Shown: positions 10,552-40,000 of the stretch, piece by piece | Layout of the letters: each line of letters begins with the position of its first letter | How positions within the stretch are numbered: the first letter of the stretch is position 1 | DNA from: an uncultured Candidatus Saccharibacteria bacterium | GTDB lineage: Bacteria > Patescibacteriota > Minisyncoccia > Phycocordibacterales > UBA918 | Direction of reading: 5' to 3' | DNA: 64,000 nt | Assembly: GCA_964502345.1 (NCBI GenBank) | Contig: CAZCWH010000001.1 | Coordinates: forward strand, 167 to 64,166 | Program-made: the position numbers and the translations under genes | Notes under the pieces: model-generated | Seen by the model: the letters and a program-made list of their open reading frames with translations, nothing else | The model's database searches: none | Told to the model about the DNA's origin: nothing

Positions 10552-11904
10552 TTACTCTGACGTCGGTGATGGGATGACAGGCTGAGTCTCAAAGTTAGCT
10601 TTAACCTCATCATCAGAAAGTTTTCGTTCCCCATCACCTTCTTTGATCGTTATTTCATAATCTCGTTCTGGTTGAGACGCATCAGAAATATAGAGAACGG
10701 CCCCGACAAACCCGACAATAAGGAGTGCAACTGAAATGAAAAACATTTTATAGTGCACAATGAATGTCCAAATTGTACTGAGCACATCAAGAAATTCAGT
10801 TACTCTACTCAAGCGTCCCCGAAGATCCGCAGCACCACTACGGATCGGGGCTGATACTGCTCGATATGATACAAGCCGGGCAGGCTGCTTTTTAATTTCA
10901 AGTGTTTCCTCTCTCTCATTATTTGATTCTTCTGGGTGTACACCTGCAAGAGCAAGCATTCTGCGAATATACAATTTGATCATCCATGTCACCAATAAGA
11001 TAAATGCAATTACAATTGAAAGGGTTATGAGCGTTGCTTTTACAGGAATAACCCAGAAATACGTAACCGCATCAGTACTTTTAACCCCGTTTTCTCCATA
11101 CGCAAGTGTTACTATCGCCTTGTACCGCCCAATTTCAGTAACTGAGCCCTCTCCCTTCCAGGTAAACCTGAAGTCTCTAATACTTTTTGGTAACACGTTA
11201 CCAAAATGCGATTGGTTATTAATTGGTATGAGGCCTCGCTCAGTTCCCCACATATTGGTGATTACAATATGACCACGTGGCTGTAAATGCACATTGCCCT
11301 TATTTTCAAATCTAAGTGAGAACTCTGCTTCAGGTGTATCTACAATACTGTCGAGCACTCTAAACTCTCGAACTGAACCTAGCTCAGTAACATCTCCTTC
11401 AATACGTACAAAGAAGAGCGAAGTTATAGTTTGTGATGTGAGTAATTGAAGTTTTGCCTCAGAGTTTTTTGGTGGCTGTGTACCAACGAGTATTGCTGCG
11501 AAATGCCCACCAGGGGGTGCATCTTTTGGAATTTCGACAAAAAATGAAAGTTCTCTGCTTTGCTCGGGTGGTATGACATACGGCCCATTTGCAATCTCTA
11601 TCCACTCTGCAAGTGTGTTTCTACTTTCATCCTCGTCTTCTAGAACTGGAATAAATTTTCCTTGTCCCGATTCCCCTGAAGCTGCAAAATTTACAACTTC
11701 TGCATAAACGGTAATTTCGTATGGATTTCCATTCACAACCTTAACTGAGCTTTGCCAGATATCACCTCTTTCAACTGATAGTTGAAAGAGTGGTGGTGTC
11801 ACCGTGAGCACCTGTGCGTTTGATTGAGCATGTACTGAAAATGGTAGTGCAAGAAAAATGCTAAAGATAAAAACTATACTGTTTGTTACAACTCTTTGAC
11901 TCAT
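10552..11904 (-). CDS. DUF916/CscA-like cell-surface protein (signal peptide, beta-rich ectodomain, C-terminal TM helices)
   Basis: signal peptide, then xTVTPPLFQLSV...VKVVNGNP, which resembles the DUF916 N-terminal motif. TM near residue 290 and a second TM near 385. It overlaps the next gene by 4 nt. Confidence 0.45.
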   Translation of the reverse strand: MSQRVVTNSIVFIFSIFLALPFSVHAQSNAQVLTVTPPLFQLSVERGDIWQSSVKVVNGNPYEITVYAEVVNFAASGESGQGKFIPVLEDEDESRNTLAEWIEIANGPYVIPPEQSRELSFFVEIPKDAPPGGHFAAILVGTQPPKNSEAKLQLLTSQTITSLFFVRIEGDVTELGSVREFRVLDSIVDTPEAEFSLRFENKGNVHLQPRGHIVITNMWGTERGLIPINNQSHFGNVLPKSIRDFRFTWKGEGSVTEIGRYKAIVTLAYGENGVKSTDAVTYFWVIPVKATLITLSIVIAFILLVTWMIKLYIRRMLALAGVHPEESNNEREETLEIKKQPARLVSYRAVSAPIRSGAADLRGRLSRVTEFLDVLSTIWTFIVHYKMFFISVALLIVGFVGAVLYISDASQPERDYEITIKEGDGERKLSDDEVKANFETQPVIPSPTSE

Positions 11905-12935
11905 TGTTTTGTAAGATCTATGTCGTGATGGCGGGGGTCTGAACGAGATTCACGTATGCGAAGTGGAATCGGATCAGAATCATCCTGTATATCGTCGTCA
12001 AGATATTTTTTATGCACAAAGAAAGCAAGTACGACTACAAGAAGTGCAAGCGCTGCAAAAATACTCAGAAGCATTTTGAGCGGTATCACATAAAAAAATG
12101 AAGTGTCCTGGACAGAAGCTCGCTCAGTATTTCCATATTCAATATTGAGAAATGCTTTATATTTGCCAAAAAGTCCATCGACAGGTACCTCTACCGCAAA
12201 CTCCTTCTCCTCGCCTGCATTGATTGTCTGATTATCAGTGTTTACTGGAAGTGAAGCAACTTCAACCCCTTTGCTGTCATAGAAGATGATTTCGCCTTTG
12301 GGTGTAAGTGATTCATCTCCTGGATTTTTGATTGTGTACACTGCTGCCTGATTGCCCGCTCCCGTAATAAATCTATCAATTATAAACTTGCCTAGTTTTA
12401 GAAATTCAACCTTATTGTCTGCTATTGTTGCATTAATAATACTTCCAGGAGCATCACCACGCTTTACCTGCTCTGCTGCTTCATCTCTGTTTCTTCCATA
12501 CCCAAATCCTAAAAACGCATGGTATTCGCCAGGGACTGGACTCGGATGAACTCTGAATGTGACTTCTAAGGTTTTTGTCGCACCAATCATAAGATTAATC
12601 CCTTGCCTGCTGAACTCCATCCAGGAAGAGAGGGACGCGGAACGATCACTCTCAATTGGAGAATGATACTCTTCAATCATTCCCCCTTCATTGACAGAGA
12701 TGTTATTGATGCTCGGGTAGATGGTGACCGGAGAATCACCCGTGTTTGTAATGGTTATGATCTTAGTTACAATGTCGCGTGCTTCTAGATCTAAATCAAT
12801 GACTAGTGGAGAAACAAGGTAAGACGGAGCCGCGAAGCTGACCAAAGGAAATAGCAGTGAAAGACAAAAAAGTGTTATCGGAATCCTTGTTACCATACGC
12901 ACAGATAGTATCATACTAAAAAATTGGTACCGCAA
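11901..12935 (-). CDS. DUF916/CscA-like cell-surface protein with C-terminal TM and an acidic/basic tail
   Basis: signal peptide, beta-rich ectodomain, then TM (LLSIFAALALLVVVLAFFV) plus a charged tail. It lies immediately downstream of the 2471-aa giant gene with a 20-nt overlap. Confidence 0.45.
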   Translation of the reverse strand: MRYQFFSMILSVRMVTRIPITLFCLSLLFPLVSFAAPSYLVSPLVIDLDLEARDIVTKIITITNTGDSPVTIYPSINNISVNEGGMIEEYHSPIESDRSASLSSWMEFSRQGINLMIGATKTLEVTFRVHPSPVPGEYHAFLGFGYGRNRDEAAEQVKRGDAPGSIINATIADNKVEFLKLGKFIIDRFITGAGNQAAVYTIKNPGDESLTPKGEIIFYDSKGVEVASLPVNTDNQTINAGEEKEFAVEVPVDGLFGKYKAFLNIEYGNTERASVQDTSFFYVIPLKMLLSIFAALALLVVVLAFFVHKKYLDDDIQDDSDPIPLRIRESRSDPRHHDIDLTKQ

Positions 12936-15900
12936 TATACCTTATACTTGTGCCATATACACCAGCTGGCTGGGACTGACGGACCTTGAGTTTAAAGACG
13001 ATATCGGTTATTTCATTTGTCACGGGGACTGAACTATATGCCACCTCATCGAGAGTTGTGGTACTCATACGAGCGTACGTATCAATGGCAGAAAATCGTG
13101 CATTGCTGTTATATAGTGTGTCATCACCCGAATGGTAACCAGCACAACCAGTAGCCTCAGTGGAGCAACCTGTACTCCAATCTATTGGACTTGCATTTGT
13201 TCCTGTAATAGGTGGAATAATTGCTTCACTTCCACTCATGAAGTCATCTGTTGCTATCATAAAAATTCGATATCCTTCGGTAGCATTTGTAGTAACTCGC
13301 AACCGTTGAACTGCCTCTACATCTGAACCAATCGGAAGTATGCCAAATGGGATTGTTGTTGTACCAGAAGCAACGTCTGTCGTAATACCCTCAGTCGCAG
13401 TCGACGACGCAACGCCACCAACTGAAAATACGAGTGATGCTCCTTCAGTTACAAGTGACGGATACTGTTCACTATTGTTAGTAGACACGGGGACTCCCTG
13501 CACTACATCGTAAAGTCTAAAGTAGTACACAAGGTTTACGCGAGGACCTGCAGATTGAATGGTAAATTCGTATTCTGTAGCATCACCACCTTCATGCCGA
13601 AAACCACTCAACGCTTGAGGGGATTCATTATGCGTTCCACAACCGTTCCCAACACCCGCGACGCAACTGTCTGCATCAGAAAGTGTTCCGGTCGTTATTT
13701 CACTGTTATCGGTACCACCTCCATCTGCATAGCACCAGGTTGAAGTTGCTGTACACGTACTTGTTGCGACCACATCTGCAACAGTTTCGAAATTTGCATA
13801 CTCTGAGTACTGCAGTTTAAAACGCACATCATCACGTGATATATTTTTTACCTCTTTCACTACAACTCGGAGCTTGACCGCTTGACCATTTGCAATATCT
13901 ATTGGTGCAACATTTTCTATTGCAAGTGGTGTAACGGGTGTTTCATTATTTTCATCGTCGTACCAGCGCCAATTTTGCGTTTTGGGAGTAAAACTTGCAG
14001 TTCTAATTTTTGGATGTTGGTAATAATTTCCTAATAGTTCCCCATTTGTTTCAACCATTCGGAAACAGTAGTATGTTTCTGCATTTGCACCATTTTGTTC
14101 AACAATCCAATCATACTCAATGGTCTCATTCACCTGCACTGCATGCGCATTAGCATCAGTATCATTTTCTTCCTCAAGCGTACCAGCTACATCCGAAATG
14201 GAAGGAAGTACGAGATCGCCGAGCGTAGGAGGGTCTCCGGAAAGAAGCGTACCATCAGTTGTTCCTGTGGCATTAAAACCCCTCCAGATTGTACTTGAAG
14301 CAGCGTTCCCAAGTGTGTTCCAGTTTGCTTCACTAATTGCACTACATGTTGAGACCATTGGAGCATACTGGAGCTTAAATGCCTTAGTGCCAGCTGGCCA
14401 TGTGGCATTGAGTGCCTGAAGAGACATGCGAATACGAATCCGTTCTCCTTCACCTAGTGGTTCATCAGTAGCAGTTAAGGTTGTGTCTTCACCAAGATCT
14501 TGACCCCCGACAGGCCACGGGTCTGTTGGCTTGAGTGCATTGTTATCAACAAACAATTGATAATGGAGTTGCTCGAGTGCAAGCCCTGCAGTTGGCCATT
14601 CAACAATCTCCGCACGATACGTAAGCACTGAACCAGTATTACTGCGCCAGATTTCAAATGCAGTAGATGAAGCAATTGTTATACCTGCTATCGCTCGCGG
14701 GAAAATCGTAGTAGTGAGTGACGAACGAGCATTTGCAAATATTGATGCGTTTGTAAGGTCAGTCAGAACCTTTCCATTCGGAAGCGTGACGCTTACCGTA
14801 AGCGGAGCTGTGCCACCGGTCGTAAAACCATTTGACTGAGTGACTTCCATAGCTCCAGCTGCAGTTTGTGTATTTTCAATGATCCATGCGACTGAAGTCT
14901 GTCCAGACGGGGTTGTCGCACCAGCTTGAAGAAAGTACGACACAGAGCCAACACTAGAAAGCCACACCTCAGCACCAAATTCATCTGTTCCATTGAGTAG
15001 TCGATTATTTCTTTTCTGTGTATGTATAAACGTACGAGTTAGATTACCGAGGGCTGTAATTGCCTCAGTTTCAGTAACACCAGCTGCACTGTAGGTGTGT
15101 TCACTTCGTTGAACAACCCAATTCGGACCTTTAAATTCAACTACGGCATAACTTACCCGTACTGCATCCGTGCCGGTTGCTCCTCGCCAGAAATATGGTG
15201 TATCGTTATTTGCATCCCATGCTGAAGTACTCGGTAATGCATCATAGTTTGCCGAACCAGTATCAGGGCTTTGTTGCCCCGTAATAAATACAACTACATC
15301 ATCATCGTTTGTGATACCAGAAACTATACTGCCCGTAGCACTCGTAGAAGCTACTCCATACGCAATAAATGTTTGATCATGCACTATCATTTCATTATCG
15401 GAACCAGGCTCTCCAATAAATTCAATAATTTCCCAATCAACTCGTGTCGATGTTGCGACTCCTGTTCGTGCAATGGTCACTGAAGTCATGATATTTGAAG
15501 GGTTGAGTATATACGCTGTTGTGTTTGTTGCGTTTTGGGCTGCGGTATTCCCCGAAGCGTGACCAGCACCAGTAATACCGATATTTGTGATACGAATAAA
15601 TGCACTCGTTGAAGCGTTTGGTGTTATGTAGTGCACTCCAGCGACAAGTGTTGTTGAGGTAGCTCCCATGAGTATGGTTGCAGAGTTACGCTGGATTTCA
15701 AAATCTCGCTCAGGAGATGTGGTGAGCTCTGCATATTTTGAATACGCGTTAAGCTCAACACTCGAAGCAGCAAGCCTAAAACAATAGGTTATATCATTAC
15801 CCGCATCGACTGTTTGCTCAATACTAAACTCTGCTTCGAGGTACTCCGAACTCGTAATTGATGTAGTTGCAATGATTGATGATGTGTCCTTTATTGCACT

Positions 15901-18900
15901 GTTTGGTGAGAGGAAACTAGAGTTTTCATTTGATACCCCGCCCCCCAGTATAGAAATGTCTGTACTGTCATCACCATCCGTTAAATTAATCGAATCGTAC
16001 ATCTCCCAGGCGCCGCCAGTCGCACCCACATCAGTCCATGATGTTACAGCGCTACAGGTTGTGATTTTTGCTCCATACTCTAATCGTAATGCTCTGGCTA
16101 ATGAAGTAACAGTACCTTCGTTTGAAACTTGTAACCTCAAACGTACGGGAGTTGTCTGTGCAACATTTGAAATTGCCGTATCTTCCGCGTCACCCGAGAG
16201 CGAAGTTGCTGTTGTCTCATCTCCATTATCACTTCTCCAGTGGTAGTGGGTCTGTGTAAGGACTGCTCCTAAAAGTGTCGTTGACCCATTCATATCACGA
16301 GTAATTGAAGGACTTACTGAGCCTCCTCCAGAGACAATTAAATTTGATGATGGGCTTTCCATGATGATATCGATAGTTTCATCATTTTGTGCAGTGTCAG
16401 TCGTATCAAGTACGGTGTACAAACACATGGTCGACGTCGTCGAAATCGAGACTGACCCTGTAAATGTTGAGGTCCCATTGGGTCCTGAAAATCCATCAGT
16501 ATCTGTTGAACCAAACTGGGCTTCCCCTCCCGTATAACTATCACTTGCACAATCATAGGGAGCAGTGGTATCCAAATCATAATGAAGTTCTATATTGTCT
16601 AGATCGGTTTGTGCATCAACAGTCCCATTTTCTGAAATAGTAATGCTGGTAACATTGCGAGTGCTGACATTCTCAGTAATGACAAAAGCGCTCCCCACAT
16701 AGAAATCTGTTGCTGGTATTGTTGTCGTTGCTGTCTGACTTGTGGTTGCAATGGTCACGAGGACATCTGAAGAAATATTTGCACGCGGTATAACTGAATA
16801 CGCTGAGAGCGCTTGTCCTTGATTGGTAACTCTAAAACAGTATGTATTCCCTTCTACCGCGGTTGTTGAAGCTACTATTGAATACTCTAATTCAACAAAC
16901 TCTGATGATGACAGAGTAATTTGGCCGGTTTGAGATACAGTATCTTTTACACCACCATTTGGAGTAAGGAAGGTAGCATTTTCATCTGTCACAGCACCAT
17001 TGATTCCTGATGCTATATTTGTAGTATCTGCACCATCAGTTAAATTTAGTGTGTCGACCATATCAAAATCACCTCCTGCTGAACCAATGTCAGTCCATCC
17101 TGTTGCTGCTTCGCACGTGCTTGGATTTGGCGCATACTCCAAACGATACTGCATTGCTGGAGTTGAACTACTGCCCTCATTTGATACCTCTACACGGAGA
17201 CGTGTGGTTGATCCTTGTCGCATCGCAGTCAGTGAGGTGTCCTCAACTCCGCTCGTCTTTGAAGTGGCAGTCGTTTCATTTCCATCATCATTGCGCCAAT
17301 GATAGTGAACGAGAGTAGGAGTATCGTTATACACCAATGTTGTTCCAGAAAGATCTTGTGAAGCACTTGGCCCGGCACTACTACTCGTAACGGTCACATC
17401 GCTCGCTGGATTTGCAATAGAAATTTCAATTGTTGAACTACTGTCCGCTGAATCAAGCACGTCCATGACGGGATATACACAAAGTGCTTCAGTCGCATCT
17501 ACATTAACAGTCGAACCAGTAAACCCTGATGTACCATCTGCGCCAGAAAAACCATTACCATCCGTTGAACCAAACTGACTTTCACTTCCTCCATACGTGA
17601 CACTTGCACAATCGTATGGCGACACTGTATCGAGCTCATAAAACAACTTTACGTTAGCAATATCTGCCGAACCATCGATTGTTCCAGATTCAGTAATGGT
17701 AATTCCAGTAATATCATATGCTTGCGTTTCATCAGTATTGTAAAGACTAAACACACTACCGACATAGACATTACTCGTGCTTGCGTAGAGTGACGCAATT
17801 TGAGACCCAGTAGTTGCAATTGCAGTGCTTGGTAAATTTGCGAGTGTAGCACCATAGATATCATCGTCTGTATTATCAAACCATGTAACATACAAACGTT
17901 CACTATTGACGAATCCTACATCAACTCCATAGATATCATCTGGACTAGTATTTACTGGACCTTGTTCATATTCCCATGTAGTCATCCCATCAGTTGATCG
18001 TTTCCATAGTACATTCGCTGTGTTGGCTGTGTTTGCTGTGGCCTGTGCGCTATACGCTACATAGACGTCGTCATTGCTTGTATCCAGTGCAATGGCAACA
18101 TTTGTAAGACCAAGTACGACAGATGCACTCACATTAGTTTTTGGAGTCCACGTACCCGCGGAATAGACTGCTGTACGTAGCACGTCGTTCCCTGGTGTAG
18201 CATTATCTGCAATGTACGCGAGATATACATCTCCAGTCGTTGGACTCACAGTAACAGCCATACCTACGTCATATGTCGCATTATCGATTGCGTTTGAATC
18301 AATAGTCGTAGACGCCGCATCCCACGAGCCAGCTCCATTATTCCAAACTTTACTTTCAATATTTTCTGCAGCGGCGCCGACATCGCGATGAATTGCAATA
18401 ATGTTGCCCCCTGGAAGTGGGGCGAGTATTGCATAGTTGTTAGTGAGCCCAAAGGGGTTAGTTCCTGTTTCTGACCAACTTCCCGCAAGATTACAACTCG
18501 CAGAACATTCAACTACAAATGAATCAGATGCATCAATACTGCTTGCATAGATCGTCCCATCAGTTCCCTTCGTTATTGAAATCTGGTTGGTACCTACAGT
18601 AATCGTGCCTCCTTGAGCGTTTGTCGTACTTACCGGTGCACTACCCATAAGCAGTGTGTCGCTCGTCGTATCAAGCCGGTTGTACCAAACATCATCAGGG
18701 TTAGTATCGAGTGTCGCTATATGAATGTAATCTCCTGTATCTCCGGGCGTCCACTGGTCATACCATACTTGAATAGAGATACAGTCGACCTGAGCATCAA
18801 CCGTTGTGGTACCACTCCATGTCTGACCTCCATCAGTTGTTTTGCGGTACACACAGTATCCGGGTGCGTCAACAAAAAATTTGTACCCTGTCTGATCATC

Positions 18901-20331
18901 GGTAAAGACGGTTTGGGAGCCGGCTAACACATGTGATGTACCTGCGGTACTCACATTGCTATCTATTGTGTACTGGGTGTAGGAGTCATTACTATTGATT
19001 TCGTCAAAGGCAGTTGTGCGTACATGGATCCCTGGAAAAATATCAGCGAGAGTTTCTCCAAAAATATCATTATCTGTGTCATCAAACCACGTTGCATAAA
19101 TCCGTTCATCACTGACCAGATTTAAATTGATGCCGTACATATCATCAGCGCTCGTATTGAGTGGCCCCTGCTCATATCCCCAACTTGCCATGTCATCAGT
19201 CGACTTGCGCCAGTAAATATTTCCAGTCGCTAGTGTGAGAGGTGTTGTACGAGCACTATATGCTACGTACACATCGTCATTAGAGGCATCAAGTGCGATA
19301 GCAACATTCGTGATTCCTTTCTCACTATACCTCACAACCTCTTTTGTCGAGGTCCACGTACCACTCGAGTATCGTGCAGTGCGAATCTGATCGTCAGCTC
19401 CAAGGGTCGTATTACGTGCGATATATGCCAAATACACATCTCCTGTCGTCGGACTCACCGTAACAGCCATTCCAACATCATACGTAGTGTTATCTGTTGC
19501 ATTTGCATCTATGGTCGTCGATGCAGCGTCCCATGAGCCTGTGCCATTGTTCCAAACCTTACTCTCAATATTCTCTGCAACCGCAGCAACGTCACGATGA
19601 ATTGCTATGATGTCGCCACCTGGGAGAGGAGCGAGTATTGCATAGTTATTGGTAAGCCCAAATGGATTTGTACCGGTCTCAGACCAACTTCCTGCGACAT
19701 TACAACTTGAAGAACATTCAACAACAAATGAATCGGAGGCATCTATACTGCTTGCATAGATTGTTCCATCTGTTCCCTTCGTAATAGAAATTTGGTTTGC
19801 ACCTGCCGTAATGGTTCCACCCTGCCCCGTAGTCATACTAACTGGTGAGCTCCCCAAGAGGAGTGTATCCCCATTGGTATCAAGACGGTTATACCAAACA
19901 TCATCTGGGTTAGTATCGAGTGTAGCTATATGGATGTAAGTTCCAGTATCCCCTGGTGTCCACTGGTCGTACCAGACTTGCACTGAGATACAGTCAACCT
20001 GTGCATCGACTGTTGTTGTAGCGCTCCAGGTCTGCCCTCCATCCGTTGTTTTACGGTACACACAGTATCCTGGAGCATCAACAAAGAATTTGTATCCTGT
20101 TTGATCATCAATAAATACCGTTTGCGAACCCGACAGTATGTGCGACGTACCAACGGTACTTGCATCAGAATCAATAGTTGCCTGTGCAGCTTCAGCAGTA
20201 GGTACTATCCTCGTTAATAGTGCATCACCAAAACTGCTAAGCAAAAAAACGAGTATAAGAATAGACGCAACAGTCTTCTTCACTCGCAAGAGTTTTTTAA
20301 ATACAATACCTCCCATTGTCACCATTATCAC
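12916..20331 (-). CDS. giant secreted surface protein (2471 aa). It has two tandem BNR/Asp-box sialidase-like beta-propellers, repeated ~190-aa HYHWRxDDG...YCFR modules, and a conserved C-terminal module.
   Basis: signal peptide. Asp-box motifs TTDGGQTW and STDGMTTW occur in two ~390-aa units that are ~85% identical at the DNA level (about 17780-18980 and 19010-20180). The C-terminus ...GTSIRYIAVPIF is shared with the 378-aa protein. Confidence 0.85.
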   Translation of the reverse strand: MIMVTMGGIVFKKLLRVKKTVASILILVFLLSSFGDALLTRIVPTAEAAQATIDSDASTVGTSHILSGSQTVFIDDQTGYKFFVDAPGYCVYRKTTDGGQTWSATTTVDAQVDCISVQVWYDQWTPGDTGTYIHIATLDTNPDDVWYNRLDTNGDTLLLGSSPVSMTTGQGGTITAGANQISITKGTDGTIYASSIDASDSFVVECSSSCNVAGSWSETGTNPFGLTNNYAILAPLPGGDIIAIHRDVAAVAENIESKVWNNGTGSWDAASTTIDANATDNTTYDVGMAVTVSPTTGDVYLAYIARNTTLGADDQIRTARYSSGTWTSTKEVVRYSEKGITNVAIALDASNDDVYVAYSARTTPLTLATGNIYWRKSTDDMASWGYEQGPLNTSADDMYGINLNLVSDERIYATWFDDTDNDIFGETLADIFPGIHVRTTAFDEINSNDSYTQYTIDSNVSTAGTSHVLAGSQTVFTDDQTGYKFFVDAPGYCVYRKTTDGGQTWSGTTTVDAQVDCISIQVWYDQWTPGDTGDYIHIATLDTNPDDVWYNRLDTTSDTLLMGSAPVSTTNAQGGTITVGTNQISITKGTDGTIYASSIDASDSFVVECSASCNLAGSWSETGTNPFGLTNNYAILAPLPGGNIIAIHRDVGAAAENIESKVWNNGAGSWDAASTTIDSNAIDNATYDVGMAVTVSPTTGDVYLAYIADNATPGNDVLRTAVYSAGTWTPKTNVSASVVLGLTNVAIALDTSNDDVYVAYSAQATANTANTANVLWKRSTDGMTTWEYEQGPVNTSPDDIYGVDVGFVNSERLYVTWFDNTDDDIYGATLANLPSTAIATTGSQIASLYASTSNVYVGSVFSLYNTDETQAYDITGITITESGTIDGSADIANVKLFYELDTVSPYDCASVTYGGSESQFGSTDGNGFSGADGTSGFTGSTVNVDATEALCVYPVMDVLDSADSSSTIEISIANPASDVTVTSSSAGPSASQDLSGTTLVYNDTPTLVHYHWRNDDGNETTATSKTSGVEDTSLTAMRQGSTTRLRVEVSNEGSSSTPAMQYRLEYAPNPSTCEAATGWTDIGSAGGDFDMVDTLNLTDGADTTNIASGINGAVTDENATFLTPNGGVKDTVSQTGQITLSSSEFVELEYSIVASTTAVEGNTYCFRVTNQGQALSAYSVIPRANISSDVLVTIATTSQTATTTIPATDFYVGSAFVITENVSTRNVTSITISENGTVDAQTDLDNIELHYDLDTTAPYDCASDSYTGGEAQFGSTDTDGFSGPNGTSTFTGSVSISTTSTMCLYTVLDTTDTAQNDETIDIIMESPSSNLIVSGGGSVSPSITRDMNGSTTLLGAVLTQTHYHWRSDNGDETTATSLSGDAEDTAISNVAQTTPVRLRLQVSNEGTVTSLARALRLEYGAKITTCSAVTSWTDVGATGGAWEMYDSINLTDGDDSTDISILGGGVSNENSSFLSPNSAIKDTSSIIATTSITSSEYLEAEFSIEQTVDAGNDITYCFRLAASSVELNAYSKYAELTTSPERDFEIQRNSATILMGATSTTLVAGVHYITPNASTSAFIRITNIGITGAGHASGNTAAQNATNTTAYILNPSNIMTSVTIARTGVATSTRVDWEIIEFIGEPGSDNEMIVHDQTFIAYGVASTSATGSIVSGITNDDDVVVFITGQQSPDTGSANYDALPSTSAWDANNDTPYFWRGATGTDAVRVSYAVVEFKGPNWVVQRSEHTYSAAGVTETEAITALGNLTRTFIHTQKRNNRLLNGTDEFGAEVWLSSVGSVSYFLQAGATTPSGQTSVAWIIENTQTAAGAMEVTQSNGFTTGGTAPLTVSVTLPNGKVLTDLTNASIFANARSSLTTTIFPRAIAGITIASSTAFEIWRSNTGSVLTYRAEIVEWPTAGLALEQLHYQLFVDNNALKPTDPWPVGGQDLGEDTTLTATDEPLGEGERIRIRMSLQALNATWPAGTKAFKLQYAPMVSTCSAISEANWNTLGNAASSTIWRGFNATGTTDGTLLSGDPPTLGDLVLPSISDVAGTLEEENDTDANAHAVQVNETIEYDWIVEQNGANAETYYCFRMVETNGELLGNYYQHPKIRTASFTPKTQNWRWYDDENNETPVTPLAIENVAPIDIANGQAVKLRVVVKEVKNISRDDVRFKLQYSEYANFETVADVVATSTCTATSTWCYADGGGTDNSEITTGTLSDADSCVAGVGNGCGTHNESPQALSGFRHEGGDATEYEFTIQSAGPRVNLVYYFRLYDVVQGVPVSTNNSEQYPSLVTEGASLVFSVGGVASSTATEGITTDVASGTTTIPFGILPIGSDVEAVQRLRVTTNATEGYRIFMIATDDFMSGSEAIIPPITGTNASPIDWSTGCSTEATGCAGYHSGDDTLYNSNARFSAIDTYARMSTTTLDEVAYSSVPVTNEITDIVFKLKVRQSQPAGVYGTSIRYIAVPIF

Positions 20332-20335
20332 CTAC

Positions 20336-22123
20336 TTACGTGCTCGATGCGACTGTTTCCTGTGAGTCCAGAGTATCAGTAATTGGTTCAACGTACGGAG
20401 TAATAATTAGATCTTCAATATGCGCTACATCCTCCTCAAAGAGAGACTCAACTGAAGGGATAACGACATCTGAAATACTTGATGTGGCTCCATCAGTATC
20501 GAATTCAGTCTCAAGAATTACATCATCGGTCGATGTTGCAAAATGCGTAGGTGGGGGTATAACCACATCCACTAAAGTGCCTGTCTCCGTCGATGTCGCA
20601 TACGTATCATCGGTAGGATCAGGCTCTGGATTAGTTGACGTTGCTATTTTTGTTTTTACTTGAACGGGTGGTTGCACAAGTGCTCGTTCCTCACCAGTTT
20701 GCTCAGGATCTGGAATCTCTTGTGGTACAGATGTGGGAGAGGAATTAAGAGGCATGACCTCACCACTTTCAAGATCGTATCCTTTAGTCTCTACGTCACC
20801 GTTTTCATGCTTTGTATCATACACAAGCACAAAGCGAGGATTATCAACTGATGCTCCATCAGCATCCTCAATAATGCTTACCTGTTTCGTAATCCGATCA
20901 TAGACCTTTACACGCCATGCATTGTTATCAAATGCCTGCCAAATAATGTAGTTACCGTTTATACGTGGTGATACATCACTCGTGGTGTTATCAGTAATCA
21001 TACTGAGTTCACCTTTCTCTTCAAGCATTACTTCCCAATCACTGCCAACCCAACCCTGCCAAACTGTGATGTCACCATACCGAGAAGGCTCCATATTATT
21101 ATAGCGATCGCTCGTAAGTTGCGCTTCCTCTCCTGTCTCAACGTCATAAGAAATAATTTGGTACCGCTCATCTATGAGCCGGTGCCAAACAATTGTATTT
21201 GATACCTCGTCAAAGTAAGGAGCATCATCATCAAGCATATTAAAGGAAATTTGAATGAGTTCGCCATCTCGCTCAACGAAAATTTCTTTATCACCATCCT
21301 GATCTACTGCGGAAAATACTCTATCGGTTCCAAATACTGAAGGTGTCGTCGTTCCAGAAGAGCAGTAAAATGATCCGTCGCCTACACTCACACACTCATC
21401 TTTTGAAAAGGTGAATTTGCTAGCCTCATCAATCGCAAGGCTTATTGCAGTCGTATCTATCTGAACTACTTCTGGGGTTACAGTAGCAACCTCTGAAATG
21501 GGAGCTGTCTCAATATCTATAATATCCTCTGTACTTGATGCGGCAGGTGGTTGCACATCCTCTATAACAGGCGGGATACTTTCTGGAATTATTTCACCCG
21601 TAGTTGTGGCAGACTGATCATCTGATGTTGTTGTAGCTGTTTCTTCACTTTGAGAAATACCTTCGCTTTCAGGATTAGTAGAAGATGATGAGCTACTCAA
21701 TTCAACATCTTGCAGGACAGGCGCTTCTGTTTCCTCATCTTGAGAGATGTCTTCTAAAGTCGTACTAGCTTCACTCTCTTCAATATACTCAAGGCTTTCA
21801 ATGTTAGTTTCTTCTGTCGCGAGTTCGCTGTCAGGCAGTAAGTCATCAATAGCAGCAGTATCCTCATCACTAACTATTTCTTCTACTTTCGCACTTTCAG
21901 TAGTATCAGAAGAAATTTCAGCTTCAGTCACAGACTCAGATTCAACGCCTCCAGCATCTTCCTGAATGGAAGCTGTTTCTAGAGTATCCACTTCAGAAGC
22001 AAACGCAGGCGCCATCGGGAGAAGTACAAGTACACAGAAAAGGAAAGACGCCAAAAGGCGAGACATTTCATATAAAAATCCTCGCGTATTTTTCTTCGCT
22101 TCTTCTTTATGCGACCTGTTCAT
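20336..22123 (-). CDS. secreted protein with an acidic low-complexity N-region and beta-propeller-like repeats (IVWHR.../ITVWQGW.../YIIWQAF...)
   Basis: 595 aa with a signal peptide. An E/S/T-rich stalk is followed by three TolB-like repeat blades. Confidence 0.6.
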   Translation of the reverse strand: MNRSHKEEAKKNTRGFLYEMSRLLASFLFCVLVLLPMAPAFASEVDTLETASIQEDAGGVESESVTEAEISSDTTESAKVEEIVSDEDTAAIDDLLPDSELATEETNIESLEYIEESEASTTLEDISQDEETEAPVLQDVELSSSSSSTNPESEGISQSEETATTTSDDQSATTTGEIIPESIPPVIEDVQPPAASSTEDIIDIETAPISEVATVTPEVVQIDTTAISLAIDEASKFTFSKDECVSVGDGSFYCSSGTTTPSVFGTDRVFSAVDQDGDKEIFVERDGELIQISFNMLDDDAPYFDEVSNTIVWHRLIDERYQIISYDVETGEEAQLTSDRYNNMEPSRYGDITVWQGWVGSDWEVMLEEKGELSMITDNTTSDVSPRINGNYIIWQAFDNNAWRVKVYDRITKQVSIIEDADGASVDNPRFVLVYDTKHENGDVETKGYDLESGEVMPLNSSPTSVPQEIPDPEQTGEERALVQPPVQVKTKIATSTNPEPDPTDDTYATSTETGTLVDVVIPPPTHFATSTDDVILETEFDTDGATSSISDVVIPSVESLFEEDVAHIEDLIITPYVEPITDTLDSQETVASST

Positions 22124-22255: not shown

Positions 22256-22993
22256 TTACTTAATAAATGAGTCAGCTAGAAGTATTGAAAAATCCTTAAG
22301 CGTCATGCGCCCGTCTCCATTAAAATCAAAAATCTTACCTTTTGTGAACCATGCTGCCATAAAGGCAGAGATGTCTTTAAGGTCCACTTCCCCATTACCG
22401 TCGAGATCAGTCACGAAGGCAACCTCAGCAGTTCCAATAAGCTCACCATCTACACCCGTTATGTAGATTCTTGTCTCGTCGTCCTCAACGTCCGCGACAT
22501 CAACAAGTGTTCCTAATCCATCTCCCGCAACAAATGTAGCGTTATCGGTGGTCACCTTAGCAATACCTGATTCGAGTGCTTTTGCATTGATTCGAGCAAT
22601 CGTATGCTCTCCAATAAAACCCTTTCTAAATGTTCCTCCCCGCATATATATGCGCCCATCCTTTGCATAGGGTTTCTCTGTCCACAGTGTAATGACTGAG
22701 GTCCCCGTATCAACACTTTCGATGCTCATCTGTGATTCTGGATACTTTATGGTTATATCAACAGCATTTACCGGTGTATGTGCTGTTGCGCGTACTTCTA
22801 TGTAAAAATTCTCACCTTCGAGTACTGAAGACGGACTTGTGTGAATTGAAATATATGAAGTATTTTCTGTGATTACAGAAGCAAGGCTTGCAAAGAGTGC
22901 CGTGAGTACAACCAGTGGAAATGCATATCGAACAGTCTTACCAGTTGTAAGCGTATATGATGGAAACATCATTTTCCAAATCTTTTCAAACAT
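22256..22993 (-). CDS. small secreted protein with an N-terminal cohesin-like domain and a C-terminal dockerin-like module
   Basis: cohesin-like segment VLEGENFYIEVRATAHTPVNAVDITIKYPESQMSIESVDTGTSVITLW. The C-terminus DLDGNGEVDLKDISAFMAAW...DFNGDGRMTLKDFSILLADSF is two Ca-binding dockerin-like repeats. Confidence 0.6.
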   Translation of the reverse strand: MFEKIWKMMFPSYTLTTGKTVRYAFPLVVLTALFASLASVITENTSYISIHTSPSSVLEGENFYIEVRATAHTPVNAVDITIKYPESQMSIESVDTGTSVITLWTEKPYAKDGRIYMRGGTFRKGFIGEHTIARINAKALESGIAKVTTDNATFVAGDGLGTLVDVADVEDDETRIYITGVDGELIGTAEVAFVTDLDGNGEVDLKDISAFMAAWFTKGKIFDFNGDGRMTLKDFSILLADSFIK

Positions 22994-22995
22994 AG

Positions 22996-23655: not shown

Positions 23656-23659
23656 GCTT

Positions 23660-26826: not shown

Positions 26827-27963
26827 TTAGAACGTCGGTGTCGCAATGTAGCGAAGCTCCGTCGTATAGTCGTCGCCTGCTTCTTGGAGCGCCGAGATCT
26901 GAATCTGGTACCCGATGCGTGCGGCGCCTATTCCGGCAGTCACACCATCTGCTGGTCCCGTATGACCCATAACCACTATAGGTGTCGTGCTACCTGATAC
27001 CCATTCATCTGAACCAAACTCTTCTGGTGCAGAACGTGAAGTTGTAGCGTCAGTTGAGGTTAGACCCCAATGACCGTAGGTAGCGATGTCAGCAACAAGA
27101 GCACTTGGCCCTTGCCACGCAGTTGGTGTTTGCGTGTAGGCTCCATCGATGAATCCATCGATTATTCCGCCTGTTGTTGATTCGAGATCACCTGTTTGTT
27201 CTACTGTTACCGTGTAGCCGTGTAGGGCGTTTGTGGTAACAGAAAGATCTTGAGCAAGTGTTTTTGACGTATTGATTTCGAGTGTACCGAACGGTAGCGC
27301 TACATTAGTTGAAGTTGCTGCAGTCGTTGTTGGGCTCCCGTTCACGGTTGAGCTGGCTCCGACGCCAGTGACTGTGAATGTGAGCGAAGCATTGACGCTT
27401 GCAGATACCGTTACTTCATCAATGATAGCGACCCGAACTTGCCCTGAATCGGGCATGGTTCCACCGATTTCAATAAGATGCGATGTCGTTGTTGCAGTCG
27501 GGTTTGAGATCTGAGCATCCCCTCCTCCAAATAGACCAATCTCAATTACGAGTGGTGTACTTGATGCCTGCGGTACGTTACTCGGTGATGTGAGTGTTAG
27601 TACCTGAGCATTGAAGTAGGCTCCCCACACTCCACTTCCATTTACTGCCGCTACTGTTTGTGGAGTAGCTGATGCAGTGATGTCGATATCATCGAATGCC
27701 ATTGCTGGTATCGTGAAATCTACAGGAAATGTAATGGTGATCGTTGAACTTGCGAGCATACCAGTTGGCGTTGTAAACGCAATGGTGTGGTCGGAAGGCA
27801 ACCCTGGTGCAGAACTAGACAACGTATCACTTGCAAAAGTGATTGATGCAGCTTCCGCGGTGCGGAAGATGGTTGGAAGACCTGTACTCCAAAGGAATAC
27901 AGCGATACCAACAATCATTGCAACAGCCTGAAGAGTTCGCACGGTACTTGCCGTGTGAATCAT
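26827..27963 (-). CDS. secreted protein sharing the ~170-aa type-A C-terminal module with the 2471-aa giant protein
   Basis: 378 aa with a signal peptide. Its C-terminal half aligns by eye with the 2471-aa C-terminus (L.F.V.GV.ASST...PFG.L.I...VTTNA..GY... ...RYIA.P.F). Confidence 0.6.
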   Translation of the reverse strand: MIHTASTVRTLQAVAMIVGIAVFLWSTGLPTIFRTAEAASITFASDTLSSSAPGLPSDHTIAFTTPTGMLASSTITITFPVDFTIPAMAFDDIDITASATPQTVAAVNGSGVWGAYFNAQVLTLTSPSNVPQASSTPLVIEIGLFGGGDAQISNPTATTTSHLIEIGGTMPDSGQVRVAIIDEVTVSASVNASLTFTVTGVGASSTVNGSPTTTAATSTNVALPFGTLEINTSKTLAQDLSVTTNALHGYTVTVEQTGDLESTTGGIIDGFIDGAYTQTPTAWQGPSALVADIATYGHWGLTSTDATTSRSAPEEFGSDEWVSGSTTPIVVMGHTGPADGVTAGIGAARIGYQIQISALQEAGDDYTTELRYIATPTF

Positions 27964-33888: not shown

Positions 33889-33982
33889 ACTGTAGTGTAA
33901 TAGTAAACAAAAAACACCGAATACGAAACCTGGTTGCTCGCATAACTAGCACTCAAAGCTAAAAGCGCACTTTGAGCGTGCA

Positions 33983-37019: not shown

Positions 37020-40000
37020 CTAATCTCCAATTGCGTAAAACGTATTCGTCCCCTGGTGTGGATTCCCTGCAACTCCAAATGGAATTGCTATACCCCAGAA
37101 AAGTTGATCACTCACAGAAGGTGTCGTAGAAGTCGGCTTTGTGAGGTCAAGTTCATAATTCGTAGAACTTGCAGAAAGCTGGCTACAGAACGTACACGTG
37201 GTGTATGTAAATGTTGACGTTGCAAAGATTTGCTCATTAACAGGAATGAGTGAGGAATTACCATCAGTAAGGTCAGTTCCTGCTATCGCAATATCGAGAG
37301 CGTCATTTCCGATATTTTCAACCGTTGTTGTTGCATTATAAGAACCTGTGTCGTTATTAACTTCTAGAGCCCCATAGTTAATAGTGCTGTCTACTGTAAT
37401 TGCACGCAAAGTGAGTAGATCTATCGAAGGTGCTGTGCCTGTCGCAATAGCACCGCTTTGATCACTCACCGAAAGTTCTGCGCGCCATGTTTGACCAGCG
37501 TAGGTACCAACATCTGTTGGGTCTGCATGGTAATAGAAATCTGCCGAACACGTTACGTCACATGAACTTCCACTACAATTTTCAAACACGCACTGTGTTG
37601 GAGAAGCTATGTAGCAGTTATTTGGATCACTCGTACATGACGAGAGCACACTTGAGCGGAACATGGTAGTTGTTGCGAGATTCAAATCACCATACCCGTT
37701 GAGGTCCGAGACTGTCCCTGTTGCGTAAATTGTCGTTGTCGCACCAGGTGAAAGAGTGATGTCATTTCCACCATTAAGTGAGAGTGAGGTTACGACCGGT
37801 GTAAACACAAGACTCAATTCTGCAACCTTTGTGTATGCGTCGAGCTCTGCCCCTTCGTTTGTCACACGGAAACAATAGTTCGAATCACTCACGTTAATTG
37901 TGGGTGCGATTACATACTCAAGTTCTGTAAACTCACCTGAATCGACATCTAGGCTTCCTGTGTTATTGCTTGAATCTTCCACTACCTGTCCTGGTGTAAA
38001 CACACCCGAGCCTCCGAGGAGGTCAGTCGTACTTTCCAAGTCTGTAATATTGGAAGAAGACACCATACAAATATCACTCGTACCGCAACTTGCGACATTC
38101 GGAACCTCTACATAGTCATTGTAATCAACAGATTCACAGCTCGGTGCTGCACCCTTTGGTGCAAACTCAATCTCATAATTTTGCGCACTCACTGGAGTTC
38201 CGCTATTTTCTACGAGGAATCGAACGCGAGCAGTTTCCCCTATATCAATTCCAGAAGCAGGGGTATTACGAGCAGAAGTCCATGTTGCACCACCAGGAAC
38301 CTGTTCACCACCTAAGCTCGTAGTTGCAGCGGTTGCCATGAGCGGACGAGCTGAGTAAATATCCCATCCACCGTGGTATCCCCAAAGTGTAAATCCAACA
38401 CCTCCCGAGGTGTAGCTACTGTCCGTCGCACTGGTTGTTGCAACCACACTGCCATTTTTCGATAGCCGTACATATATTGAGTCATCGGTATCCCAATCAA
38501 CTTCAACTTCATACCAACCTGTACTGTACGTTACTGTTGTTGATGCAAGTACGGTACCACTCGTATCACGATGGGTTGCATTTTCAGAAATAGAGAGTCG
38601 ATCAACACCGAAAAGTTCGAGACATACCGCATAACTTGTCGCTCCTGTCTGAACACCAAAGTGGGTACATGATTCGTCCGCTGCTCCACTCACAGTATCA
38701 ATGTATTGGAGCCATCTAAGTGTCTGCCCTTGCGCTACCGTCACGCCAAGATTACGCATGTTCTGATCTGTCTTTGAATTGGTTTGATCAAACGCTTCAA
38801 GCCTATATGTTCGCTCATATGCGCTACTTCCCACCACACTAAAGTCTCCAGTGTCACCAGTGTACTCACTGATATTTCCATCTTCAAAGTTGTCCATGAA
38901 GTCAAACGTCGATGTTGCACTTCCATCACTCACCGTACCTTCCCCGTAGTACATGTATACAGTTGCTGTTGTTGACGTTGCAAGTGTTGGTACCTTGACC
39001 CACACAACAGCTTGTGTACTTGCAGTATATGATTCGGTGAAGTGTTCTACCGCAGTGAGCCCATCTTCTTCTGTAAATCTTAGATCATCAAAATCGGCCT
39101 GCATATCACTGTCATATGGCACGATGACCTTCACGGCGACGTCATGATAGGTTACTGGATCAGAATTTGTTACCGTGACACGCTTTCGCTTACTCCAGTC
39201 AAAGTCAAACCACTCTGAATTTGGTACGCCTTCCCCACCATCGTCGTTTCGGAATCGATACGCTGATTGCTCAATGAGTATACAGTTGCTATCGTCCCAT
39301 CGTATTGAACCACAGGCATCCCCACCATCAATATCGAATGCTTCACCATCAAAGTTTCCTGTATGTGACACAAATGTCCATGCACTCGGCGTAGAGCCAC
39401 TCAACTCTACGTTTGCTCCAGTGATAGCCGTTGTTGTTGCAAAGGCAACTCCAGTCACAAAGAGTCCTGCGTTGTAGTTGAGTGTTGTTGAGGAGAGCGT
39501 TATGAGTGAACCTCCATTTACCGCAAGCGTGAAGTTACCTTCGGTGAGTGAACTTACGGTCGTGAGACCACTTAATTTTAGTCCGTCAACATTCATATTT
39601 GCGAAGCTGTAGTAGAGTGCATTGAGTGTGCCTCCAAGAATATCAATCGCATAGGTACCGCTTCCTTGATTAGAAATAGTTGTATCAAATCCACTTGCTC
39701 CTACGATATTGAGTGATCCACCCTGAAGTGTCGTGGTTGCATTCGCCGCAATGTACACAAATACCTGTCTTGAACTTCCGCCAAGCGCGGTGCCATCGAA
39801 ATCAGTTGCATAGCTCCAGTAGTCAGCACCTGCGGTTCGCTCATAATCTCCATAGATGTAGAGGACACCACTTACACCTGCATGATCTTGTGAGTAAAAT
39901 GAACTTTCTGAATCAGTGATTGTAATCGTGCCCGTACTATCCCACGCACGAAGCTCCGTACTTGAACCAACGCGGATATTGTTGTAGGTATCTCCACCCG

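What the first reader, a model, noticed from the sequence alone, without database searches (positions are those of the whole stretch)
12916..20331. 2471-aa surface protein with a recently duplicated pair of BNR/sialidase-like propellers plus four copies of an unnamed ~190-aa WRxDDG...YCFR module
Asp-box motifs (TTDGGQTW, STDGMTTW) define two ~390-aa units that are ~85% identical at the DNA level (about 17780-18980 and 19010-20180). This is a candidate host-glycan-binding or sialidase head for an episymbiont-type adhesin. The WRxDDG module (HYHWRNDDGNE..., HYHWRSDNGDE..., NWRWYDDENNE...) recurs in the 7248-aa protein and has no name I can assign.
Basis: partly seen in the sequence, partly recalled or inferred. 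Interest (0 to 1): 0.65.

Follow-up and report, generated by a model that had tools for sequence, protein, structure and literature searches.

The report
Giant propeller-headed Pam-pilus-type adhesin subunit
This 2471-residue secreted protein of an ultrasmall (CPR/Paceibacteria) bacterium carries two seven-bladed propeller heads (not sialidases) on a stalk of unnamed Ig-like modules and ends in a domain like the subunits of the recently described CPR "Pam" pilus, so it is a candidate for the unknown host-binding part of that fibre.

Summary
The ORF, the two propeller units, the four modules and their recurrence in the 7248-aa protein are all real. Two details are wrong. The units are 72% identical in DNA, not about 85%. 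Synonymous sites are saturated (dS≥2, dN/dS≈0.05), so the duplication is lineage-specific but not recent.

A confident AlphaFold2 model shows a seven-bladed propeller. It is closest to lectin and GH145/PL42-type propellers, and the family lacks a conserved arginine triad, so it is not a sialidase.

The last 148 residues match NCBIfam CPR_Pam_pilin_C (E=1.8e-10, below the naming cutoff). A 378-aa pilin-sized paralogue shares this domain. The two downstream genes encode membrane-anchored two-Ig proteins homologous to E. faecium WxLIP1, matching the described PamC/PamD chaperones. The cassette is syntenic in four other Paceibacteria genomes.

Best reading: a giant adhesin subunit of a Pam-type donor-strand pilus. 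This is a new variant of a very recently described system.

The parts
12916..20331 (-). ORF of the giant protein. It is 2471 aa from the GTG start; the likely true start is the ATG at 20316, giving 2466 aa.
   Evidence: Syntenic orthologues of about 2050 aa occur in L001-L004.
20188..20316 (-). Sec signal peptide (aa 6-48), ending ...TAEA|AQ
   Evidence: This is the only hydrophobic segment of the protein. The same TAEA|A end occurs in the 378-aa pilin-like paralogue.
19009..20184 (-). Propeller 1 (aa 50-441), seven-bladed. Asp-box at aa 95-102, degenerate box at aa 377-384.
17806..18975 (-). Propeller 2 (aa 453-842), a tandem paralogue of propeller 1
   Evidence: 78% aa and 72% nt identity, dN 0.15, dS about 2.5. 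It keeps all 25 family-invariant residues. None of the other 131 homologues has two propellers.
17323..17775 (-). B1 domain (aa 853-1003), unnamed, about 150 aa
   Evidence: 46% identical to B2. It recurs in 50 segments of related proteins. No Pfam hit.
16768..17322 (-). Module M1 (aa 1004-1188), WRxDDG...YCFR type
16261..16710 (-). B2 domain (aa 1208-1357)
15712..16260 (-). Module M2 (aa 1358-1540)
14578..15711 (-). Middle region (aa 1541-1918), conserved, fold unknown
   Evidence: It is present in 34 segments of the 150 top module proteins. No Pfam hit and no PDB sequence hit.
13996..14577 (-). Module M3 (aa 1919-2112). It lacks the WRxDDG motif but keeps YCFR.
13444..13989 (-). Module M4 (aa 2115-2296), NWRWYDDE...YYFR type. 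It always directly precedes the C-terminal domain in relatives.
12919..13443 (-). A conserved strand (ASLVFSVGGV) followed by the Pam-pilin-like C-terminal domain. The NF058581 match covers aa 2324-2471 (nt 12919-13362).
   Evidence: NCBIfam CPR_Pam_pilin_C hit: E 1.8e-10, 41.1 bits, profile positions 3-148 of 148. All 12 homologues hit it, best E 5.4e-12. 43 of 150 module proteins end in this domain.
11901..12935 (-). 344-aa chaperone-like protein: signal peptide, two Ig-like domains, C-terminal TM helix. Its gene overlaps the end of the giant gene by 20 nt.
   Evidence: Weak WxLIP_PGBD hit. TM helix at aa 279-312. The family profile hits EfmWxLIP1 (9i25) at E 1.7e-5.
10552..11904 (-). 450-aa second chaperone-like protein with the same architecture plus an extra C-terminal TM region
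26827..27963 (-). 378-aa pilin-sized paralogue: signal peptide, N-terminal domain, a strand (ASLTFTVTGV), and the same C-terminal domain
   Evidence: 33% identical to the giant's CTD. NF058581 E 8e-4. Equivalents occur in L001-L004.
20336..22123 (-). 595-aa secreted protein immediately upstream, conserved in all syntenic loci, function unknown
37809..38345 (-). Intact module copy in the 7248-aa ORF
   Evidence: 206 bits
50061..51665 (-). Module copy in the 7248-aa ORF, split by an insertion of about 340 aa (halves at 51372-51665 and 50061-50345)

Best explanation
The ORF encodes a Sec-secreted giant subunit of a Pam-type (donor-strand-exchange) surface fibre of a Paceibacteria/Minisyncoccia (CPR) bacterium.

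Shown here:
- After signal-peptide cleavage, the protein starts with two tandem seven-bladed beta-propellers. Both are under strong purifying selection.
- A stalk follows, built from unnamed beta-sandwich units: (B + M) twice, a 378-aa middle region, then M3 and M4.
- The protein ends with a conserved beta-strand plus a 148-aa domain homologous to the C-terminal domain of Pam pilins.
- The same strand plus domain ends a 378-aa pilin-sized protein in the cluster.
- Two translationally coupled downstream genes encode proteins with a signal peptide, two Ig-like domains and a C-terminal TM helix. They are homologous to WxL-interacting protein.
- The cassette is conserved in four other genomes.

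Inferred:
- The C-terminal domain is an incomplete Ig fold.
- It is first capped by the membrane-anchored chaperone-like proteins. These correspond by architecture to PamC/PamD as described in bioRxiv 10.64898/2026.03.03.709456.
- It is then completed by a strand from the neighbouring pilin or an anchor protein. This mounts the 2250-residue N-terminal part on or along the fibre.
- The propellers act as the distal ligand-binding heads, probably binding a carbohydrate on the host cell surface. They are not catalytic sialidases.
- Relatives keep the stalk and pilin domain but swap the head, as expected for host-specificity determinants.
For: C-terminal domain:
- NF058581 CPR_Pam_pilin_C hits it over its full length at E 1.8e-10.
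- 12 of 12 homologues hit the same model.
- The domain always sits at the extreme C-terminus.

Operon:
- A pilin-sized paralogue carries the same domain in the window and in L001-L004.
- The downstream proteins have a signal peptide, Ig-like domains and a TM helix.
- Their profile hits only EfmWxLIP1 in the PDB, at E 1.7e-5 over 226 aa.
- Weak DUF916 hits occur in 8 of 11 orthologues.
- Synteny is shown. Gene overlaps are shown.

Heads:
- The AF2 model has pLDDT 92.9 and seven-bladed neighbours.
- dN/dS is about 0.05, and both copies keep all 25 invariant residues.
- The same propeller is fused to a type IV pilin N-terminus in P0042.
- Of the 150 top module proteins, 43 end in the CTD, and only 9 of those 43 have the propeller.

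Stalk and extracellular location:
- The module model has pLDDT 96.7 with an Ig-like core.
- The Cys69/Cys161 pair covaries: 238 modules have both, 122 have neither, 33 have one.
Against: - The NF058581 score (41.1 bits) is below NCBI's 55-bit naming cutoff.
- No PamT-like (CTD-only) or PamR-like component was identified.
- The pilin-like N-terminal domain shows no similarity to the modules (hhalign probability 0.7%).
- Pam pilins were reported mainly in Saccharimonadia and Microgenomatia, not Paceibacteria.
- No ligand, binding site or filament has been observed. The adhesin role is inference from architecture.
Confidence: 0.55

Rival explanations
1. The protein is a wall- or membrane-tethered surface protein of the WxL type, not a pilus subunit. 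The C-terminal domain would be held non-covalently at the envelope by the two WxLIP-like membrane proteins, as in the large WxL proteins of enterococci and lactobacilli, with no polymerisation.
For: - The downstream proteins are homologous to EfmWxLIP1 and give recurrent DUF916 hits.
- The locus has one small and one large protein sharing a C-terminal domain plus WxLIP-like genes. This matches the WxL cluster logic of PMC10599100.
Against: - The C-terminal domain gives no Pfam WxL hit even at E≤10 and lacks the dual W-x-L motif.
- It does hit the Pam pilin model.
- The pilin-sized paralogues occur in one to two copies per locus, like major pilins.
Confidence: 0.25
2. The propellers are carbohydrate-active enzymes, such as a GH145/PL42/PL25-like lyase or hydrolase. 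They would be displayed on the same scaffold to degrade the host envelope rather than merely bind it.
For: - The top Foldseek hits are GH145 enzymes (E 1e-13), with PL42 and PL25 lyases also listed.
- The profile gives weak sequence hits to 4irt, 5muk and 7esk over about 90 residues.
- A single strongly conserved patch, with invariant His134, Asp122/128/155 and Lys94/185, looks more like one active or binding site than a multivalent lectin.
Against: - No conserved Arg neutraliser exists. Only one column reaches 50% Arg, and it lies in blade 7.
- Pfam BNR_2 is below threshold.
Confidence: 0.15
3. One reading: the heads are sialidases (GH33-like BNR propellers).
For: - There are Asp-box motifs.
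- Pfam BNR_2 scores 24.7 bits.
- The profile matches sialidases locally around the Asp-boxes at E about 1e-4.
Against: - The fold has seven blades, not six.
- Sialidases rank below seven-bladed folds in both structure searches.
- There is no Arg triad and no conserved Glu or RIP motif.
- The matches to sialidases are confined to the stretches of about 45 residues around the Asp-boxes.
Confidence: 0.03

Closest known systems
Pam pilus of Candidatus Mycosynbacter amalyticus: PamA/PamB pilins, PamC/PamD membrane-anchored chaperones (bioRxiv 10.64898/2026.03.03.709456; NCBIfam NF058581)
   Same: - Found in CPR bacteria only.
- Sec signal peptide.
- C-terminal pilin-type domain at the extreme C-terminus, preceded by a conserved strand.
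- A beta-sandwich unit directly before that strand.
- Paired cysteines.
- Operon partners with two beta-domains and a C-terminal TM helix.
   Different: - This protein has 2471 aa; the Pam pilins are 38.7 kDa (PamB) and 55.3 kDa (PamA).
- About 2250 extra N-terminal residues carry propeller heads and a multi-module stalk.
- The score is below the family's naming cutoff.
- The host lineage is Paceibacteria, not Saccharimonadia or Microgenomatia.
- PamT-, PamE- and PamR-like parts were not identified.
- No filament has been observed.
Two-domain tip adhesins of chaperone-usher pili (FimH, PapG)
   Same: The logic of an N-terminal receptor-binding head plus a C-terminal incomplete Ig pilin domain that is chaperone-capped and then completed by a neighbour's strand.
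   Different: - There is no sequence relationship.
- There is no usher or outer membrane.
- The head is a pair of propellers rather than a lectin beta-sandwich.
- The stalk is enormous.
- The giant protein appears to retain a possible donor strand of its own.
WxL clusters of Firmicutes: large and small WxL proteins plus WxLIP (DUF916-DUF3324-TM) (PMC10599100; PDB 9i25/9i1y EfmWxLIP1)
   Same: - The two downstream proteins are sequence homologues of WxLIP1 over both Ig domains and carry the TM helix.
- The locus has a large and a small protein sharing a C-terminal domain.
   Different: - The C-terminal domain is not a recognisable WxL domain: no PF13731 hit and no dual W-x-L motif.
- The Pfam DUF916 hits are below threshold.
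- The organism is a CPR bacterium.
Seven-bladed propellers: PLL/PHL/BP39L lectins, CylK C-terminal domain, GH145 / PL42 / PL24 / PL25 enzymes
   Same: - GH145 members also carry BNR-like annotation.
   Different: - Sequence identity is 10-14%.
- There is no blade-to-blade sequence repeat as in PLL lectins.
- There is no His/His/Arg/Tyr catalytic set as in PL42/GH145.
- The family has its own invariant WYDQWTPGDTGxxIHI motif.
Bacterial sialidases (GH33)
   Same: Asp-box (SxDxGxTW) motifs on a beta-propeller.
   Different: - Sialidases have six blades; this has seven.
- The catalytic Arg triad, the Tyr/Glu pair and the Asp are absent here.

Membership tests
Sialidase / GH33 BNR propeller | Six-bladed beta-propeller | tested here: not met
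   [not shown]
Sialidase / GH33 BNR propeller | Catalytic Arg triad, Tyr/Glu nucleophile pair, acid/base Asp | tested here: not met
   In 72 aligned homologues only one column has Arg at 50% or more (R361, 75%). No Glu column exceeds 60%.
Sialidase / GH33 BNR propeller | Pfam BNR_2/BNR above the gathering score; several Asp-boxes | tested here: not met
   BNR_2 scores 24.7 bits against a cutoff of 31.4, and BNR scores 15.8 against 27. Each unit has one canonical and one degenerate Asp-box.
GH145 / PL42 / PL24 / PL25 propeller enzymes | Seven-bladed propeller | tested here: met
GH145 / PL42 / PL24 / PL25 propeller enzymes | Conserved catalytic His (plus neighbouring His), Arg neutraliser and Tyr (PMC8377490) | tested here: inconclusive
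   There is one invariant His (His134) and no conserved Arg in blades 1-6. Residue equivalence could not be checked because no model coordinates were available.
[not shown]
   [not shown]
PLL-type seven-bladed lectins | Seven sequence-similar blades, each contributing a Trp-based sugar site | tested here: not met
   [not shown]
Pam pilus pilin (NCBIfam NF058581 CPR_Pam_pilin_C) | C-terminal pilin domain matching the model at or above its cutoff | tested here: inconclusive
   Full-length match at E 1.8e-10 but 41.1 bits, below 55. 12 of 12 homologues match, best E 5.4e-12.
Pam pilus pilin (NCBIfam NF058581 CPR_Pam_pilin_C) | Sec signal peptide; N-terminal domain, linker strand and CTD order | tested here: inconclusive
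   A signal peptide is present. A conserved strand before the CTD is shared with the pilin-sized paralogue. A nine-strand module precedes it (the model was made of M1). There is no sequence similarity to the pilin-like N-terminal domain.
Pam pilus pilin (NCBIfam NF058581 CPR_Pam_pilin_C) | Operon with PapD-like chaperones bearing a C-terminal TM helix (PamC/PamD) | tested here: met
   This holds for architecture and position only. Two adjacent genes encode a signal peptide, two Ig-like domains and a TM helix, and they are syntenic in four genomes. Homology to PamC/PamD themselves was not testable.
Pam pilus pilin (NCBIfam NF058581 CPR_Pam_pilin_C) | Assembly into filaments by donor-strand exchange | not testable with these tools
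WxL cluster (PMC10599100) | WxLIP protein: DUF916 + DUF3324 + TM helix | tested here: met
   Profile A5 hits EfmWxLIP1 (9i25/9i1y) at E 1.7e-5 over 226 aa. TM helices are present. Pfam DUF916 hits are sub-threshold in 8 of 11 proteins.
WxL cluster (PMC10599100) | C-terminal WxL domain with dual Trp-x-Leu motif | tested here: not met
   There is no PF13731 hit at E≤10 and none in 12 homologues. The motifs are absent from alignment A4.

The most novel reading that the evidence does not exclude
The CPR Pam pilus and the Firmicute WxL/WxLIP surface complexes are one homologous strand-complementation system. On it, CPR bacteria mount a large family of head-swapping giant adhesins, built from a variable head, a WRxDDG-type stalk and a pilin C-terminal domain. 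These adhesins would be the missing host-recognition determinants of episymbiotic Paceibacteria. The tandem propeller here would be one lineage's doubling of its receptor-binding head.
Probability: 0.3. Interest if true: 0.8.

Novelty: new variant of a known kind. Interest (0 to 1): 0.62.

Why it matters
How CPR/Patescibacteria recognise and hold their hosts is largely unknown. The 2026 Pam-pilus preprint says that how the filament contacts the host is unresolved, and it names no adhesin.

This locus suggests an answer for Paceibacteria: giant subunits that carry interchangeable heads, here two seven-bladed propellers, on a conserved stalk ending in a Pam-type pilin domain.

It also does three other things:
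- It defines a very widespread but unnamed extracellular module, found in at least 2754 clusters at 50% identity.
- It links the Pam chaperone-like proteins to WxL-interacting proteins of Gram-positive bacteria. That link is absent from the Pam paper.
- It offers concrete residues and constructs for testing.

Tried and rejected
- **Module word-index search.** A single-sequence search found nothing. The exhaustive profile search was needed.
- **Whole-protein scans.** Pfam and NCBIfam scans of the full protein gave only a weak BNR_2 hit and missed the Pam domain. Scanning the isolated C-terminus found it.
- **PDB sequence searches.** The propeller gave only local Asp-box hits. The module gave nothing significant. 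The C-terminal domain gave none, the middle region none and the pilin-like protein none.
- **WxL identity of the C-terminal domain.** Rejected at the sequence level.
- **Pilin-like N-terminal domain versus the WRxDDG module.** hhalign probability was 0.7%.
- **The search for related loci with alignment A3.** It failed because no conserved stretch was available. It was rerun with M1 alone.
- **The look-up of encoding contigs for the window's own product.** It is not on record.
- **Recent gene conversion between the two propellers.** Rejected: the longest identical run is 17 nt.
- **Pam domain on the 7248-aa protein.** Its last 1000 aa have no hit.
- **Paper searches.** Searches for prior descriptions of Parcubacteria giant adhesins or WxL in Patescibacteria found none.

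Full report
**Observation.**
The window holds a 7416-nt ORF on the minus strand (12916-20331) encoding 2471 aa from a GTG. The product on record in public collections starts at Met6 (nt 20316, 2466 aa) and comes from a 64,253-bp NCBI contig.

Chunked self-BLAST and a local HMM give this architecture:
- signal peptide;
- unit A1 (aa 50-441) and unit A2 (aa 453-842);
- B1 (853-1003) plus module M1 (1004-1188);
- B2 (1208-1357) plus M2 (1358-1540);
- a 378-aa middle region (1541-1918);
- M3 (1919-2112) and M4 (2115-2296);
- a 175-aa C-terminal segment.

DNA identity is 72% overall and 77% over the best 813 nt. Protein identity is 78%. Nei-Gojobori dS is about 2-2.5 (saturated), and dN is 0.15, or 0.08 in the first 270 codons. 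The longest identical DNA run is 17 nt, and only 50% of conserved degenerate residues share a codon. The duplication is therefore old at the nucleotide level, and both copies are under strong purifying selection.

The duplication is nevertheless lineage-specific. Each copy is only 59-60% identical to the single propeller of the syntenic 2062-aa orthologue P0125. None of the other 131 retrieved homologues has two propellers. Both copies keep all 25 family-invariant residues.

**The propeller.**
A search of 5.8 billion proteins found 120 homologues. All named ones come from Parcubacteria-type CPR bacteria, and most are stand-alone proteins of about 400-670 aa behind a signal peptide. One of them (P0042) fuses the propeller to a type IV pilin N-terminus.

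With a 72-sequence alignment, AlphaFold2 gave a confident model (pLDDT 92.9, pTM 0.92) with 27 strands arranged as seven four-stranded blades.
- Foldseek ranks GH145 enzymes first by E-value, then PLL-type lectins, PL42 and PL25. Six-bladed sialidases rank lower, with TM about 0.45-0.5.

Sequence-profile hits to sialidases are confined to the roughly 45 residues around the Asp-boxes. Pfam BNR_2 is below its gathering score. In the family alignment only one column reaches 50% Arg, and no Glu column exceeds 60%. The sialidase Arg triad and Tyr/Glu pair are therefore absent.

**The WRxDDG module.**
All four copies are real, and each is orthologous one-to-one to a module in P0125 at 67-72% identity. 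The 7248-aa ORF has one intact copy and one copy split by about 340 residues.

A profile of the five window copies, searched exhaustively against 1.84 billion cluster representatives, found 2754 proteins at E≤1e-3 and 1434 at E≤1e-10, with up to 21 copies per protein. Ten members scanned against Pfam have no family covering the module. Named members and 61 loci in GTDB species genomes are almost all labelled Patescibacteria, Paceibacteria, Kaiserbacteria or Nomurabacteria. One is Chloroflexota, and a few carry other labels such as Gammaproteobacteria or Acidimicrobiales, which I did not verify.

Across 393 modules, Cys69 and Cys161 covary: 238 have both, 122 have neither and 33 have one. This indicates a disulfide and an extracellular location. 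The family-wide signature is RxR, E143, Y[CY]FR and Y174. WRxDDG itself marks only one subtype. 'Unnamed module' is therefore correct, and the module is far more widespread than the window suggests.

**The C-terminus and the operon.**
The last 175 residues are conserved at the extreme C-terminus of all orthologues. They are 33% identical to the C-terminal half of a 378-aa protein in the same cluster (ORF 26827-27963).

Scanned on its own, this segment matches NCBIfam NF058581 CPR_Pam_pilin_C ('Pam pilus system pilin subunit') over the whole 148-position model. The match has E=1.8e-10 and 41.1 bits, below the 55-bit naming cutoff. The 378-aa protein matches more weakly. All 12 aligned homologues match, with best E 5.4e-12. 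The whole-protein scan had missed this hit.

The Pam pilus was described in a 2026 preprint:
- PamA and PamB have a nine-strand beta-sandwich N-terminal domain, a linker strand and a truncated Ig-like C-terminal domain.
- They polymerise by donor-strand exchange.
- PamC and PamD are PapD-like chaperones with a C-terminal TM helix.
- How the filament contacts the host is stated to be unknown.

In the window, the two genes immediately downstream of the giant gene overlap it by 20 nt and each other by 4 nt. They encode proteins with a signal peptide, two Ig-like domains and a C-terminal TM helix. A profile of these proteins and their orthologues hits exactly two PDB sequences, both E. faecium WxL-interacting protein 1 (9i25, 9i1y), at E 1.7e-5 over 226 residues. 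Sub-threshold Pfam WxLIP_PGBD (DUF916) hits recur in 8 of 11 of them.

The cassette is: a protein of about 590 aa, the giant, a protein of about 335 aa, then one of about 450-570 aa. It is syntenic in four other Paceibacteria-type genomes. Each of those loci also carries one or two proteins with the same C-terminal domain, about 380 aa where the gene is complete.

Of the 150 best module-bearing representatives, 43 end in this domain, and only 9 of those 43 carry the propeller. The rule is therefore a variable head, a module stalk and a pilin-type C-terminal domain.

**Mechanism.**
The steps shown are the domain anatomy, the homologies, the synteny, the selection and the extracellular signature. 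The steps inferred are these:
- The C-terminal domain is an incomplete Ig fold.
- It is capped by the membrane-anchored chaperone-like proteins and then completed by a strand from a neighbouring pilin or anchor.
- This mounts the propeller heads on a Pam-type fibre, where they bind a host-surface ligand, probably a glycan.

The conserved strand ASLVFSVGGV before the domain is also present in the pilin-like paralogue. It may be a donor strand, in which case the giant protein is an in-line or sub-terminal subunit rather than a cap.

The rivals are:
- a non-polymerising, WxL-like tethered surface protein;
- an enzymatic (lyase or hydrolase) head;
- a sialidase, which is essentially excluded.

**Comparison and novelty.**
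The protein works like a FimH/PapG-type adhesin on a Pam-type scaffold. Membership of the Pam pilin family is supported statistically but is below NCBI's cutoff and remains structurally untested. The downstream proteins are WxLIP homologues, but the C-terminal domain is not a recognisable WxL domain.

The Pam preprint does not mention adhesins, lectins, WxL, DUF916 or Paceibacteria. Literature searches found no prior description of such giant subunits.

I rate the finding a new variant of a very recently described kind. It has moderate-to-high interest because it gives a testable candidate for host recognition in CPR bacteria, and because it hints that the Pam and WxL systems are related.

**Limits.**
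- No ligand or filament evidence exists.
- Taxonomic labels come from record titles of related MAGs.

Noticed in passing
window 22256-26471, 28538-29662, 58850-60382, 61171-63042 (-): A run of small secreted proteins gives weak cohesin, dockerin/EF-hand, Big_13 and Big_6 hits. The 363-aa and 581-aa proteins also have a C-terminal TM helix. They may be further fibre or anchor components (PamR-like?), but this is untested.
   Followed up: partly
window 37020-58766 (-): The 7248-aa ORF has DUF2341 domains and two WRxDDG-type module copies, one of them split by about 340 aa. Its last 1000 residues have no Pam-pilin-like domain, so it must be attached or secreted differently from the 2471-aa protein.
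   Followed up: partly
window 10552-12935 (-); PDB 9i25/9i1y: The profile of the two downstream membrane-anchored proteins hits only E. faecium WxLIP1 in the PDB (E 1.7e-5). This suggests that the chaperone-like proteins encoded next to Pam-type pilin-domain genes in this CPR lineage are related to the WxL-interacting proteins of Firmicutes. The Pam preprint does not make this link.
   Followed up: partly
P0042 (665 aa, ENA metagenome protein): The same propeller family is fused to a classic type IV pilin N-terminus (MNARRGFTLVETLIAL...). The head is therefore reused on a second kind of surface fibre.
   Followed up: no
window 20188-20316 and 27850-27963 (-): The giant protein and the 378-aa pilin-like protein share the end of their signal peptides (...TAEA|A), about 13-16 residues after the hydrophobic core. 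Orthologues have AxA|A at the same place.
   Followed up: no
window 17806-20184 (-): The two propeller copies are 88-90% identical in protein over blades 1-5 but only 47-57% over blades 6-7, although synonymous sites are saturated throughout. The C-terminal blades may have diverged in function, or may contact different neighbouring domains.
   Followed up: partly
L002 16123-19886 (GCA_040879725.1, JBBDJV010000015.1): In this relative, two pilin-like genes of 380 and 384 aa and a third WxLIP-like gene lie directly after the two chaperone-like genes. This gives a compact layout of adhesin, chaperones and pilins.
   Followed up: partly
window 32674-35305 (-): A MacB/FtsX-type ABC transporter pair (ABC_tran; MacB_PCD plus FtsX) sits between the two giant-protein regions. 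Any role in exporting or processing these surface proteins is unknown.
   Followed up: no
method note (vs 81): hmmscan of the whole 2471-aa protein missed a domain that scores E 1.8e-10 when the C-terminal 175 aa are scanned alone. The word-index homologue search with the propeller returned neither the window's own protein nor its orthologues of about 2050 aa.
   Followed up: yes
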